Assembly (NCBI RefSeq): GCF_054482525.1
Contig: NZ_CM137006.1
DNA length: 64,000 nucleotides
Strand: one strand, 5' to 3'
Shown: positions 45,026-48,526 of the stretch, piece after piece
Position numbering within the stretch: the first letter of the stretch is position 1
Layout of the letters: every line of letters begins with the position of its first letter
Program-made: the position numbers and the translations under genes
Notes under the pieces: generated by a model
Databases searched by the model: none
Seen by the model: the letters and a program-made list of their open reading frames with translations, nothing else
What the model was told of the DNA's origin: nothing

Positions 45026-45544
45026 TTATGCTTCCAGCGGTGCGCGCCAGTCGTCGGCACCGGAGGTGCCAGACTTGACGTGTTCCCACTCTATTTTGCG
45101 GTAGGCCAGTGAAACTTCGAGCAACTGGGTGAACTCGCGTTTCGCCGGATCCTGGCAATGCGGCATATGCAGTTTCATATCGACAATCGTCGAATCGGTC
45201 AGGCGGGTGGTGAAATAATGCTCCTGTTTGCCTTCCACAGAGGTACGCCACCAGTGAAGTTCAGTGGTTGGCAGCATTTCGCCGGAGGCCAGTGCGTTGT
45301 ACATCAGCGGAACAGCTTTGTTCAGCGCCACGGTAAAAATGAACGGCTTGTGAGCACGCTGACCCGCAGGCTGGCCGGACTGAGGATCGGTCGGGACAGT
45401 AACGTTATGCAGGAATTCCTGCACCAGCATCTCGTCTTCGTGCCCCTGCACATAGATGTTGCCGACAGAATCAGCGGTAAATGCACCTGCAGTAATATTT
45501 CCCTGGGTCTGACCTGTGATGGAGATATAACACGGTGTTGGCAT
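45026..45544 (-). CDS. hcp: type VI secretion tube protein Hcp (TssD)
   Basis: 172 aa translation with typical Hcp sequence (MPTPCYISITGQTQGNITAGAFTADSVGNIYVQGHEDEMLVQEF...). Confidence 0.9.
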   Translation of the reverse strand: MPTPCYISITGQTQGNITAGAFTADSVGNIYVQGHEDEMLVQEFLHNVTVPTDPQSGQPAGQRAHKPFIFTVALNKAVPLMYNALASGEMLPTTELHWWRTSVEGKQEHYFTTRLTDSTIVDMKLHMPHCQDPAKREFTQLLEVSLAYRKIEWEHVKSGTSGADDWRAPLEA

Positions 45545-46240
45545 TTGTAAACTCCTTGTTAACGTGGTTAATTACTACTTACAATGACCTGCCGTTAATC
45601 CCAGACAGGCAGATGCAGCTCACTTCACGGAACCGCATCATTTTTCAGTATTTTTTACATACAAACCGAGCTAGAATTTACGGTTGTCGTAAAAACTATT
45701 TTTAAAATCATTAAATCTCTTATTCAGCAATAAGTTAATAATATATATCTGGATAACCATACCCAACTATTCAAAGTCCGTATTGCCTCCATAAAATGGC
45801 CAAAGCTGAATCATGAATAAATATTGTATTTATCCTTTCTGAATTATCATTTTGATAATTTTTGAGATATTCCTTAAAAATACCCACTTAATCAATCACA
45901 AAACAAATATATAAACAAGCAATCATCAGATTAGCTTATGTTTAATGAAATTATTGTATAATTCAATAAGTTACATAAAAGCTCTATATTTAAATTATTG
46001 CCATAATACACCTGACGCGAATTGCACAGGTTCACACAATCTATTTAACGCTTGCAGAATACCCCTCTTTACGATCGATAAAAAGTCCTTTTCTTATTTA
46101 TTTTGAAGCGTAGAATGCGGGGTGATGAAGGAGTGGTGATTTTATTTTCACCGCCATTATGGCGGCATTGCCGATATTTTTTTGCGGTACAAATATGCCG
46201 TGTTCATGGCCTGTACGAGATAACATGACGGATCACTTTT
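45545..46240. promoter_or_regulatory. AT-rich divergent hcp / tssB control region with a Fur-box-like motif near 45841-45860
   Basis: About 700 bp without convincing ORFs between divergent hcp and tssB; gaattatcattttgataatt resembles the Fur consensus. Confidence 0.35.
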
Positions 46241-46741
46241 ATGAGCAAAAAATTTGAAGGCAGCGTCGCGCCTCGCGAGCGTATAAATATATCCTATGTC
46301 CCGAAGACGGACGGCCAGACGGCTGAAGTAGAGCTTCCGCTTAACATGCTCGTTGTCGGCGATACCGGAAATACGCAGGAGACATCCCCACTGGATGAAC
46401 GTCAGGCAGTTTCCGTTAACAAGCACAATTTCGGTGCAGTAATGGCTGAAGCAGCCATTGGCCTCAATTTTACCGTCCCCGCCACGCTGAAGGGAAGCAC
46501 AACGGACGATGAACTGAATGTGGCGCTGAATATCAAGTCACTGGATGATTTTTCACCGGACAGCGTGGCCCGGCAGGTTCCGGAAGTGAATAAATTGCTG
46601 GAACTGCGTGAAGCACTGACTGCGCTGAAGGGGCCGATGGGCAACCTTCCGGCATTCCGTACCCAGCTCCAGGCATTGCTGGAAAATGAGGAGTCCCGCG
46701 AGCAGTTGCTTAAAGAAATCGGCCAGGTGAGTGGGAAATAA
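46241..46741 (+). CDS. tssB: T6SS contractile sheath small subunit TssB (VipA)
   Basis: 166 aa translation typical of TssB (MSKKFEGSVAPRERINISYVPKTDGQTAEVELPLNMLVVGD...). Confidence 0.9.
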   Translation: MSKKFEGSVAPRERINISYVPKTDGQTAEVELPLNMLVVGDTGNTQETSPLDERQAVSVNKHNFGAVMAEAAIGLNFTVPATLKGSTTDDELNVALNIKSLDDFSPDSVARQVPEVNKLLELREALTALKGPMGNLPAFRTQLQALLENEESREQLLKEIGQVSGK

Positions 46742-46775
46742 CCACCACTATTTCATTAAACAGGGTTATCCAGAC

Positions 46776-46982
46776 ATGGCGGCACACAAAAATATCTCCG
46801 GGAAACACCCCCTCTCTGACGAAGACATTTTGCAGGCGGTTTACCGGGTATGTTTCAGCCCGTCCGGTGAAATCAACCGGGATGGCGTGGATGCGCTGAT
46901 TACAACACTGGATCGCCGTATCAGTGATCTATTGGATGAGATTATCCATCTTTGTGAGTTTCAGCAGAGCGCGCCGTACTGA
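46776..46982 (+). CDS. hypothetical small protein between tssB and tssC (coding status uncertain)
   Basis: ORF 46731..46982 with an internal ATG at 46776; occupies an unusually long tssB-tssC spacer. No domain recognised. Confidence 0.25.
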   Translation: MAAHKNISGKHPLSDEDILQAVYRVCFSPSGEINRDGVDALITTLDRRISDLLDEIIHLCEFQQSAPY

Positions 46983-47050
46983 CGGCGCGTACTTCACTGA
47001 CGGCGAAAACCCGGTTTCAGAAACACAGCTAAAACAGAAGGATTTTCAGT

Positions 47051-48526
47051 ATGTCTTTACAGGAAGAGGAACTCGTTTCCAGTCATGCCGGGCAGACTGA
47101 TCAGGCGTCGTCGCTGCTTGATCAAATCATGGCACAGACCCGTATTCAGCCCGGTTCGGAAGGTTATGACGTTGCCCGCCAGGGTGTGACAGCCTTTATT
47201 GCCAGCATCCTGCAATCCACTGCATCTGCCGAACCGGTCAATAAACTGGCCGTGGACAGCATGATTGCAGATATAGATGAACGCATCAGCCGCCAGATGG
47301 ATGTCATCATCCATGCGCCTGCCTTTCAGCAGGTCGAGTCGTTCTGGCGCTCACTGAAAACCATGGTGGATCGCGTTGATTTCCGTGAAAACATCAAGGT
47401 CAACGTGCTTCATGTCACGAAGCAGGAACTTCTGGAAGACTTTGAATTTGCCCCAGAAATTATTCAGTCCGGATTTTATAAACACGTTTATTCGTCCGGA
47501 TTCGGACAGTTTGGTGGTGAACCCATCGCTGCCGTGCTGGGCGCTTATGAGTTCAAAAATACCGCTCCTGACATGAAACTGCTGCAATACGTCAGTGCCG
47601 TGGGCGCAATGGCGCACGCACCGTTCCTCTCCTCCGTTTCCCCGGAGTTTATGGGGCTGAACTCGTGGACCGAACTGCCTAATATCAAAGATCTTTATGC
47701 CATCTTTGAAGGTCCGGCCTACACCAAATGGCGCGCCCTGCGTGACTCGGAAGATTCGCGCTATTTAGGGCTTACGGCACCCCGCTTCCTGCTTCGCCAG
47801 CCTTATTCACCAACAGATAACCCTGTTAAGAACTTTAACTATCACGAAGATGTCAGCCGGAACCACGAAGATTATCTGTGGGGTAATACGGCCTGGATGC
47901 TGGCGTGCAATGTCGCAGACAGTTTTGCCAAATACCGCTGGTGTCCAAATATCATCGGTCCGCAAAGCGGCGGCGCAGTGAAAGATCTGCCGGTGCATCT
48001 GTTCGAAACGATGGGTCAGATTCAGGCCAAAATCCCAACCGAGGTGCTGGTCACCGATCGCCGCGAATTTGAACTGGCTGAAGAGGGTTTTATCACCCTT
48101 ACCATGCGTAAAGACTCTGATAATGCAGCCTTTTTCTCTGCAAACTCGGTACAAAAACCGAAGCACTTTCCGGGCAAAGACGCAGAAACCAACTATAAGT
48201 TGGGTACGCAGCTTCCTTATCTCTTCATCATCAATCGGTTAGCGCACTACATCAAGGTGTTGCAGCGTGAACAACTGGGGTCATGGAAAGAAAGGAGCGA
48301 CTTAGAGAGGGAGCTTAATACCTGGATCCGTCAGTATGTTGCCGACCAGGAAAACCCGCCTGCGGACGTGCGCAGCCGCAAGCCTCTGCGTGCTGCCAGA
48401 GTTGAGGTTATGGATGTGGAAGGCGAACCCGGCTGGTACCAGGTCGCGCTGAGCGTGCGGCCCCATTTTAAATTTATGGGGGCAAACTTTGAGCTATCCC
48501 TGGTTGGCCGGTTAGACAGGGAGTAA
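47051..48526 (+). CDS. tssC: T6SS contractile sheath large subunit TssC (VipB)
   Basis: 491 aa translation typical of TssC. Confidence 0.9.
   Translation: MSLQEEELVSSHAGQTDQASSLLDQIMAQTRIQPGSEGYDVARQGVTAFIASILQSTASAEPVNKLAVDSMIADIDERISRQMDVIIHAPAFQQVESFWRSLKTMVDRVDFRENIKVNVLHVTKQELLEDFEFAPEIIQSGFYKHVYSSGFGQFGGEPIAAVLGAYEFKNTAPDMKLLQYVSAVGAMAHAPFLSSVSPEFMGLNSWTELPNIKDLYAIFEGPAYTKWRALRDSEDSRYLGLTAPRFLLRQPYSPTDNPVKNFNYHEDVSRNHEDYLWGNTAWMLACNVADSFAKYRWCPNIIGPQSGGAVKDLPVHLFETMGQIQAKIPTEVLVTDRREFELAEEGFITLTMRKDSDNAAFFSANSVQKPKHFPGKDAETNYKLGTQLPYLFIINRLAHYIKVLQREQLGSWKERSDLERELNTWIRQYVADQENPPADVRSRKPLRAARVEVMDVEGEPGWYQVALSVRPHFKFMGANFELSLVGRLDRE

What the first reader, a model, noticed from the sequence alone, without database searches (positions are those of the whole stretch)
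46742..47050. Unusually long tssB-tssC spacer containing a small ORF
tssB and tssC are normally adjacent, but here about 310 bp separate them and the gap holds an 83-codon ORF (internal ATG at 46776) with no recognisable domain. This could be a small accessory protein, a regulatory RNA or attenuator region, or non-coding spacer.
Basis: seen in the sequence. Interest (0 to 1): 0.35.

Follow-up and report, generated by a model that had tools for sequence, protein, structure and literature searches.

The report
Truncated tssC duplicate between tssB and tssC
The long spacer between the two sheath genes of this E. coli type VI secretion cluster is a leftover partial copy of the start of tssC; its small reading frame was kept by selection for a long time but now looks to be decaying in Escherichia.

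Summary
tssB ends at 46741, tssC starts at 47051, and the 309-nt gap holds an ORF (GTG 46731 or ATG 46776 to TGA 46982). The window is E. coli; RefSeq calls the ORF a hypothetical protein.

A gap this long is unusual. In a scan of one genome per species, only the closest tssC relatives (Escherichia, Citrobacter, Atlantibacter, Yokenella; Salmonella from further loci) have 290-316 nt. Other relatives have roughly 0-65 nt.

"No recognisable domain" is wrong. ORF residues 28-72 are homologous to TssC residues 58-102 (hhalign 97.9%, E 6e-13; best solved-structure matches are all VipB/TssC). The spacer before the ORF carries a degraded copy of the tssC ribosome-binding site. The gap is therefore a partial tandem duplicate of the tssC 5' end.

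The frame survives in three deep clades, with long-term dN/dS of about 0.2-0.45 and in-frame indels, so it was once selected. Within clades it evolves near neutrally (E. coli: 15 nonsynonymous, 3 synonymous). It is broken in Citrobacter youngae, Yokenella, the E. albertii type strain and one Salmonella. The window carries a rare TGG->TGA allele (38 of 2253 genomes).

No RNA family, terminator, promoter or conserved RNA fold was found. Any present function, such as TssC mimicry, is untested.

The parts
46241..46741 (+). tssB (sheath small subunit), upstream neighbour
   Evidence: Pfam PF05591, E 1.1e-51; RefSeq annotation.
46742..46775 (+). 5' spacer, the original tssB-tssC intergenic region. 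It carries a degraded Shine-Dalgarno copy (AGGG at 46762-46765), followed by 10 nt before the ATG.
   Evidence: AAACAGGGTTATCCAGAC-ATG resembles AAACAGAAGGATTTTCAGT-ATG before tssC. It also resembles the whole 20-38 nt intergenic region of short-gap relatives such as L008 (TTTTTAGAAGGATTTTGAAC).
46776..46982 (+). orfX in the window: 68 codons plus TGA. Predicted two helices.
   Evidence: ORF list; PGAP CDS. AF2 run on the 74-aa EDL933-type form gives helices at residues 15-27 and 35-73, mean pLDDT 75.6.
46857..46991 (+). Block homologous to TssC residues 58-102 (orfX residues 28-72 of the 74-aa form).
   Evidence: BLASTP 47% identity over 32 aa, E 1e-7. hhalign 97.9%, E 6e-13, ungapped over 45 columns. 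PDB profile hits 5mxn, 5ojq, 5urw, 3j9g, 5myu and 5n8n all fall at the chain N-terminus. TIGR03355 E 5e-4.
46980..46982 (+). Premature stop TGA (TGG, Trp69, in other alleles).
   Evidence: Strain C1, whose 401-nt query region across the gap is 99.3% identical to the window, has TGG and a 74-aa ORF. The exact 42-mer with TGA is in 38 of 2253 E. coli genomes.
46983..47000 (+). Former last five codons (RRVLH) and the ancestral stop TGA (46998-47000) of the 74-aa form.
   Evidence: Alignment of alleles.
46969..46990 (+). GC-rich hairpin of 9 pairs with loop ACTG, spanning the orfX stop. No U-tract follows.
   Evidence: Present in the MFE fold. Not called a terminator. By eye, weaker in other E. 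coli alleles and absent in clades 2 and 3.
47001..47050 (+). 3' spacer. Holds the tssC translation-initiation region (SD AAGGA at 47038-47042). About 47016-47050 is nearly invariant across all three clades.
   Evidence: Alignment of 15 loci. The last 20 nt match the intergenic region of short-gap relatives. Read in the orfX frame, GFRNTAK resembles TssC 110-116 DFRENIK, which is my own reading.
47051..48526 (+). tssC (sheath large subunit). Its codons 1 to about 117 (47051 to about 47401) are the source of the duplicate.
   Evidence: Pfam VipB, E 1.4e-126, plus VipB_2.

Best explanation
The spacer is a partial tandem duplicate of the tssB-tssC intergenic region plus roughly the first 100-117 codons of tssC.

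The duplication arose once, in the ancestor of one enterobacterial T6SS sub-lineage. That sub-lineage has three clades: (1) Escherichia; (2) Citrobacter, Atlantibacter, Yokenella and some Salmonella; (3) a rare clade of unknown host. About 29 N-terminal codons were later lost.

The truncated copy became a small gene, orfX, of 66-78 codons. Its product is predicted to form two helices. The long helix corresponds to the first resolved helix of TssC, in the T6SS-specific surface domain 3 that TssC builds together with the C-terminal helices of TssB.

The frame was kept open under weak to moderate purifying selection for most of the time since the three clades split. In present-day lineages the constraint is relaxed or gone. 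In E. coli it evolves neutrally, several species have broken copies, and the window carries a nonsense mutation that removes the last six residues.

In the window, then, the gap most likely acts as a transcribed spacer of the polycistronic tssB operon. Its last 35-50 nt supply the tssC ribosome-binding region. orfX itself is a decaying, dispensable remnant.

Shown here: the homology, the single origin, the distribution and the selection pattern. Inferred: transcription (taken from published EHEC data), translation of orfX, and any past role of the protein.
For: Homology to TssC:
- BLASTP E 1e-7.
- hhalign 97.9%, E 6e-13, orfX 28-72 against TssC 58-102.
- In a profile search of 1.84 billion representatives, the hits beyond the ORF family that I checked (7 of 15) are TssC N-termini, matched at residues of about 58-101.
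- PDB hits are all VipB/TssC.

The duplication included the ribosome-binding site.

Restricted distribution with fixed synteny:
- Gaps of 290-316 nt occur only where TssC is at least 87% identical to the window protein. Other relatives have about 0-65 nt.
- In every locus with enough flank, the order is hcp on the opposite strand, then tssB-orfX-tssC-tssE-tssF.

Single origin:
- All three clades share the derived residues M71L, I75L and Q82L; M71 and Q82 are invariant in TssC.

Past selection:
- Between clades, codon-position identity is about 0.60/0.68/0.43, against flank third positions of 0.42-0.62.
- dN/dS is about 0.2 by Nei-Gojobori with saturated dS.
- The neutral chance of the frame staying open is 0.03-0.15 per deep branch.
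- Five of five indels in intact lineages are in frame, against one of six in the spacers.

Present relaxation:
- E. coli alleles differ by 15 nonsynonymous and 3 synonymous changes, dN/dS 1.5. tssB and tssC give 0.05-0.07.
- In clade 2, divergence is flat over codon positions (0.113/0.105/0.115) and close to adjacent third positions (0.13-0.14).
- Disrupted copies: C. youngae, Yokenella, the E. albertii type strain, one Salmonella, and L083.
- The window's TGA allele is in 38 of 2253 genomes.

The tssB operon is one transcript in EHEC (PMC13141884).
Against: - Most E. coli genomes, and most sampled clade-2 lineages, still carry an intact ORF with an ATG. A continuing weak function cannot be excluded.
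- Within-clade dN/dS of 0.35-0.7 in clade 2 is below 1.
- L082 keeps the frame through three separate in-frame indels, which looks like ongoing selection in that lineage.
- The long-term dN/dS rests on near-saturated synonymous sites, pairwise methods and only three clades.
- No expression data for the ORF were found.
Confidence: 0.55

Rival explanations
1. orfX is still a working small accessory protein of this T6SS, including in E. coli. As a free copy of the TssC domain-3 helix, it would dock on the C-terminal helices of TssB, or on the ClpV N-domain. It would thereby tune sheath assembly or recycling.
For: - The ORF with its ATG is kept in three deep clades. Between-clade periodicity and in-frame indels point to coding selection.
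- Eleven residues shared by the TssCs of the three gap-bearing clades (N64, D69, D76, R78, D84, I86, I87, H88, Q94, W99, R100) are retained in all three orfX clades.
- The predicted structure is a confident long helix.
- Domain 3 is built from N-terminal helices of VipB and C-terminal helices of VipA, and it is the ClpV target (PMC4632598; PMC5807055).
- The major 74-aa allele is seen on at least 1000 contigs.
Against: - Evolution in E. coli is neutral (15 nonsynonymous to 3 synonymous) and there is no codon periodicity within any clade.
- Independent disruptions are recurrent.
- Several clade-2 variants have L->P in the middle of the best-conserved helix.
- The Shine-Dalgarno to ATG spacing is poor in clades 1 and 2, at 10-11 nt.
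- The N-terminal 27 residues show no significant match to the ClpV-binding helix of TssC.
- No binding or expression data exist.
Confidence: 0.25
2. The duplicate was never functional. It is a neutral gene fragment that has merely not yet been deleted.
For: Near-neutral rates within clades and many broken copies. Its position inside an essential operon makes clean deletion unlikely.
Against: Flank third positions between clades are close to saturation. Even so, orfX first and second positions remain 60-70% identical, the frame is shared by all three clades, and deep indels are in frame. The neutral chance that all three clades stay open is about 2.5e-4; this is my product of the per-branch values for branch lengths I estimated by hand.
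Confidence: 0.1
3. What is selected is translation through the gap, not the product. Ribosomes on orfX would prevent Rho-dependent polarity over about 300 nt of otherwise untranslated RNA, or would keep the tssC start accessible.
For: The frame and start codon are kept while the amino-acid sequence drifts within clades. Late stops, as in the window and L083, seem to be tolerated. The operon is polycistronic (PMC13141884).
Against: This does not explain the between-clade conservation of TssC-like residues or the codon periodicity. C. youngae has a stop at codon 21, and Yokenella has an early frameshift, beside apparently intact tssB and tssC. Short-gap relatives need no such device.
Confidence: 0.07
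4. The gap is a cis-acting RNA element, such as an attenuator, a CsrA or sRNA target, or a stability hairpin, that sets tssC expression separately from tssB.
For: - The last 35 nt or so before tssC are nearly invariant across clades.
- There is a strong GC hairpin at 46969-46990.
- A paper reports that CsrA affects tssC but not tssB in EHEC, with an AGGA motif 8 nt from the ATG (PMC13141884 citing Wang et al. 2017).
Against: - No Rfam match and no terminator-like site in the gap.
- The fold z-score is only -1.86.
- The consensus structure is weak with almost no covariation.
- By eye, the hairpin is specific to the E. coli clade.
- The conserved 3' block is simply the ordinary tssC ribosome-binding region, also present in short-gap relatives.
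Confidence: 0.05

Closest known systems
TssC / VipB, the T6SS sheath large subunit (Pfam PF05943 plus PF18945; NCBIfam TIGR03355)
   Same: orfX residues 28-72 are homologous to TssC residues 58-102. This covers the start of the Pfam VipB domain and the first residues resolved in sheath structures. The conserved motif D..I..LD.R I...MDEIIH..FQQ...WR is retained.
   Different: Only about 45 of roughly 490 residues are represented. Scores are far below family cut-offs (12.8 bits against 27; 19 against 271). The inner sheath domains and the C-terminal gpW/gp25-like domain are absent. It cannot be a sheath subunit.
Truncated paralogues or gene remnants left by partial tandem duplication inside operons
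   Same: Head-to-tail copy of the ribosome-binding site plus the 5' coding part, placed directly upstream of the parent gene. Later deletions, relaxed selection and lineage-specific stops and frameshifts.
   Different: This frame stayed open, with coding-type conservation, across three clades whose flanking synonymous sites are near saturation. A plain remnant should not do that.
TagJ / HsiE1, a small non-essential T6SS accessory protein that binds a sheath subunit terminus and ClpV
   Same: If orfX is functional, it would be the same sort of thing: a dispensable, lineage-restricted, sheath-associated accessory protein encoded inside the core operon.
   Different: No sequence relationship appeared: no Pfam or NCBIfam hit other than TssC. 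TagJ binding is experimentally shown; nothing is shown for orfX. This is an analogy only.

Membership tests
TssC/VipB sheath large subunit | Full-length architecture of about 490 aa: PF05943 (301 positions) plus PF18945, scoring above the curated cut-offs. | tested here: not met
   PF05943 matches profile positions 1-26 only, 12.8 bits against a cut-off of 27. TIGR03355 gives 14-19 bits against 271.5.
TssC/VipB sheath large subunit | Statistically supported homology to the family's N-terminal region. | tested here: met
   hhalign 97.9%, E 6e-13. PDB hmmsearch E 5.5e-7 to 1e-3 against six VipB/TssC sequences. The library-wide hits I checked are TssC N-termini.
Protein-coding gene under purifying selection | dN/dS below 1 with third-position excess and in-frame indels, between and within lineages. 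| tested here: inconclusive
   Met between clades. Not met within E. coli, where dN/dS is 1.5. Not met within clade 2, where divergence is flat at 0.113/0.105/0.115.
Pseudogene or gene remnant | Truncated relative to the parent, with independent inactivating mutations and a neutral substitution pattern. | tested here: met
   Covers at most 117 of 491 parent codons. Stops or frameshifts in L003, L005, L017, L080, L083 and the window. Near-neutral rate against local third positions. The deep-time conservation argues it was not a pseudogene from the start.
T6SS-associated accessory (Tag) gene | Conserved synteny within a T6SS core cluster. | tested here: met
   Always found between tssB and tssC in all 15 or more loci examined.
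T6SS-associated accessory (Tag) gene | The protein is made and contributes to, or binds a component of, the apparatus. | not testable with these tools
   No expression or interaction data found.
Intrinsic terminator or attenuator | GC-rich hairpin followed by a U-tract. | tested here: not met
   The hairpin at 46969-46990 has no U-tract, and no terminator-like site was called in the gap.
Known structured RNA family (Rfam 15) | A covariance-model match. | tested here: not met
   No match at E <= 1 in 45500-47300 on either strand. The consensus fold is weak.

The most novel reading that the evidence does not exclude
orfX is an unrecognised T6SS accessory protein, born by partial duplication of tssC. 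It would be a free-standing mimic of the TssC half of sheath domain 3 that binds the C-terminal helices of TssB (or ClpV). It would modulate sheath polymerisation or ClpV-driven recycling in the Escherichia, Citrobacter and Salmonella branch of this T6SS type.
Probability: 0.2. Interest if true: 0.6.

Novelty: new member of a known kind. Interest (0 to 1): 0.4.

Why it matters
- It explains an odd feature of a widely distributed E. coli T6SS cluster, present in about 42% of complete E. coli genomes, including EHEC O157:H7.
- It gives an identity to a gene that RefSeq calls hypothetical.
- It is a tidy, datable case of a small gene born from a fragment of a structural gene, held for a long time, and now being lost. 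The three stages are visible in different lineages.
- If the protein is active, it would be a natural fragment-mimic regulator of sheath assembly, useful as a probe of the TssB-TssC domain-3 interface.
- Practically, anyone engineering or deleting in the tssB-tssC junction of EHEC-type clusters should know that the last 35-50 nt of the gap are the tssC initiation region. The rest is probably dispensable.

Tried and rejected
- **Rfam scan** of 45500-47300 at E <= 1: nothing.
- **Promoter and terminator scan**: no site inside the gap.
- **Single-sequence fold**: z-score -1.86.
- **Consensus fold of 15 loci**: weak, with little covariation. It proposed a long-range pairing of ATCC just upstream of the orfX ATG with GGAT of the tssC Shine-Dalgarno. 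I rejected this: only 4-6 pairs over about 290 nt, and broken in clade 3.
- **ATGGAT...ATCCAT inverted repeat** in the conserved block: simply the codons for M-D-x-I-I-H, which also occur in tssC itself.
- **Foldseek of the AF2 model against PDB**: best E-value 3.3, uninformative for a two-helix protein.
- **Cluster sizes as a diversity proxy** (419 orfX against 1386 TssB members): not interpretable, and the TssC cluster is merged with TssF.
- **An early false lead**: orfX in clade 2 seemed to evolve 3-4 times slower than neutral at all codon positions, hinting at an RNA or DNA constraint. This came from using whole-gene dS. Third positions right next to the gap are themselves only 0.13-0.14 diverged.
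- **Independent duplications or gene conversion from tssC in each clade**: considered as an explanation for the between-clade periodicity, and rejected. All three clades share derived residues, two of them at TssC-invariant sites. orfX-orfX identity (16-22 of 45) is also well above the 6 or so that two independently decayed copies should share, by my estimate from the retention fractions.
- **Literature searches** for the ORF or its accessions: nothing.

Full report
**What is there**

The window is E. coli. Bases 46200-47200 are 100% identical to several complete chromosomes, and 2269 of 5426 complete genomes carry the region. The surrounding cluster runs as follows: hcp, vgrG and Rhs genes on the minus strand, then tssB, a 'hypothetical protein', tssC, tssE, tssF, tssG, tagH, tssJ, tssK, tssL, tssH and vasI on the plus strand.

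- tssB is 46241-46741 and tssC is 47051-48526, both with strong Pfam matches.
- The gap is 309 nt.
- The ORF runs 46731-46982 from a GTG. PGAP uses the ATG at 46776, giving 68 aa.

**Is the gap unusual?**

A scan of one genome per species with TssC returned 68 loci. I located tssB in 57 of them and estimated the gap.

- It is about -58 to 66 nt everywhere, apart from one distant MAG (162 nt) and the six closest relatives.
- Those six have TssC at least 87% identical to the window protein. They are the window's own strain 1190 locus, one E. coli-like MAG, E. albertii, Citrobacter youngae, Atlantibacter subterranea and Yokenella regensburgei.
- Exact gaps there are 290-294 nt in the non-E. coli loci and 309 nt in the E. 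coli-type ones.
- A rare third clade, from sequencing-run assemblies, has 313-316 nt.
- Relatives at 72-81% TssC identity (Rahnella, Buttiauxella, Lonsdalea, Yersinia, Trabulsiella, Halomonas) have 20-53 nt.

The insertion therefore arose once, in one sub-lineage.

**What the ORF is**

It is not domain-less.

- BLASTP against the neighbouring TssC gives 47% identity over 32 residues, E 1e-7.
- A profile of ORF homologues was searched against 1.84 billion representative proteins. It found only its own family, the third clade, three long repeat-matching proteins (1260-1556 aa, 10-14 short matches each) that I did not examine, and short or full-length proteins hit at residues of about 58-101. The seven of those I checked are TssC N-termini by Pfam.
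- Profile-profile comparison aligns ORF residues 28-72 to TssC 58-102 without gaps (97.9%, E 6e-13).
- All significant solved-structure hits are VipB/TssC N-termini.
- The 34 nt before the ORF (…AAACAGGGTTATCCAGAC-ATG) resemble the tssC ribosome-binding region (…AAACAGAAGGATTTTCAGT-ATG). They also resemble the whole intergenic region of short-gap relatives.
- Read in frame past the ORF stop, GFRNTAK resembles TssC 110-116 DFRENIK. This is my own reading.

Together these describe a tandem duplication of the intergenic region plus roughly tssC codons 1-117, followed by loss of about 29 N-terminal codons.

All three clades share L for M71, L for I75 and L for Q82. M71 and Q82 are invariant in TssC. 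This argues for one origin rather than repeated duplication or gene conversion.

**Has the ORF been selected?**

Between clades, yes.

- Flanking third positions are close to saturation (identity 0.42-0.62; Nei-Gojobori dS 1.7-2.6).
- ORF positions 1, 2 and 3 are about 0.60, 0.68 and 0.43 identical. The excess divergence at position 3 is significant in several comparisons.
- Pairwise dN/dS is about 0.2. From the position-specific distances I estimate 0.3-0.45.
- A neutral simulation gives a 0.03-0.15 chance per deep branch that the start and frame survive.
- The five indels in lineages with an intact ORF are 6, 12, 6, 6 and 9 nt long. Spacer indels are 6, 1, 1, 1, 7 and 1 nt.

Within clades, no.

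- The two E. coli allele classes differ by 15 nonsynonymous and 3 synonymous changes (dN/dS 1.5). tssB and tssC give 0.05-0.07.
- By my own binomial estimate, 15:3 fits neutrality and is unlikely under dN/dS of about 0.3.
- In the Citrobacter-type clade, variable sites are 29, 29 and 27 by codon position.
- Mean divergence there is 0.113/0.105/0.115, close to third positions in the adjacent halves of tssB (0.142) and tssC (0.133).

Copies are broken in several lineages:

| Locus | Defect |
|---|---|
| C. youngae (L003) | TGA at codon 21 |
| Yokenella (L005) | 1-nt insertion plus TAG |
| E. albertii type strain (L017) | no ATG, stops and frameshifts |
| One Salmonella (L080) | stop at codon 59 |
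| L083 (third clade) | stop at codon 67 |
| L082 (third clade) | stop lost |

The window has TGG->TGA at 46980-46982. A strain whose 401-nt query region across the gap is 99.3% identical keeps TGG, and the exact TGA allele is in 38 of 2253 genomes.

**RNA and DNA alternatives**

- No Rfam match.
- No promoter-like or terminator-like site in the gap.
- Fold z-score -1.86.
- A weak consensus structure with negligible covariation.
- The GC hairpin at 46969-46990 has no U-tract and is confined to the E. coli clade.
- The nearly invariant last 35 nt or so are the ordinary tssC initiation region.

**Mechanism**

Published work shows that the EHEC tssB operon is a single transcript (PMC13141884). The gap is therefore transcribed.

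AF2, run on the 74-aa EDL933-type form, predicts a short helix at residues 15-27 and a long helix at 35-73, with mean pLDDT 75.6.

The long helix corresponds to the first resolved part of TssC. That part lies in surface domain 3, which is formed by N-terminal VipB helices and C-terminal VipA helices and is the ClpV target (PMC4632598; PMC5807055; PMC5048182). The TssC N-terminal region is what binds TssB (PMC3840085).

If OrfX acts, or once acted, as a protein, the most economical inference is mimicry of that helix towards TssB or ClpV. Nothing here tests that.

**Verdict**

- Origin as a partial tssC duplicate: high confidence, about 0.9.
- A small gene that was selected in the past and is now relaxed or decaying in Escherichia, with the window allele truncated: moderate confidence, about 0.55.
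- A currently functional accessory protein: about 0.25.
- I found no literature on this ORF.

Noticed in passing
L070 3341-3343 (E. coli O157:H7 EDL933; corresponds to window 48440-48442): tssC of EDL933 has CAG->TAG at codon 464, which removes the last 28 residues. The exact 44-mer with TAG is in 297 of 2199 complete E. coli genomes carrying this tssC. Among the 12 hits listed, those labelled with a serotype are O157. A C-terminally truncated sheath subunit might bear on the reported failure to activate the EHEC T6SS (PMC13141884). The window's tssC is intact.
   Followed up: partly
window 46969-46990: Nine-pair GC-rich hairpin (GCGCGCCGT-ACTG-ACGGCGCGT) across the orfX stop, with no U-tract. 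The window's TGG->TGA change turns a T·G pair into T-A. Between the E. coli allele classes, one pair changes on both sides (T-A to C-G).
   Followed up: partly
window 47016-47050, and the same block in L003-L005 and L074-L083: About 35 nt before the tssC ATG (AGAAAYAC..G.T.AAC..AAGGATTTTCAGTATG) are almost invariant across three clades whose synonymous sites are near saturation. This reaches further upstream than a Shine-Dalgarno alone needs. A paper notes an AGGA (CsrA-type) motif 8 nt from the tssC ATG.
   Followed up: partly
clade-2 loci L003, L004, L074, L076-L078, L080: the 3' half of tssB and the first 300 nt of tssC: Third-position divergence is lower next to the gap (0.13-0.14) than in the rest of tssB and tssC (0.21-0.26). 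This could be a shallower local genealogy from recombination, or extra constraint on the junction. In addition, tssC of L077 is much more diverged than its tssB, which indicates mosaic recombination.
   Followed up: no
L001 308-8358 (strain 1190; the window region upstream of hcp and vgrG): Two RHS core-protein genes downstream of vgrG are annotated as pseudogenes: one frameshifted with an internal stop, one missing its N-terminus.
   Followed up: no
proteins P0045, P0025 and P0020: Some assemblies encode fusions of a TssB fragment (P0045, P0025), or of sequence unlike orfX (P0020), to the C-terminal part of orfX. This implies deletions or assembly errors in the tssB-orfX junction.
   Followed up: no
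L035 (Candidatus Eisenbacteria MAG): The only other locus in the scan with a sizeable tssB-tssC gap (about 162 nt). Not examined.
   Followed up: no
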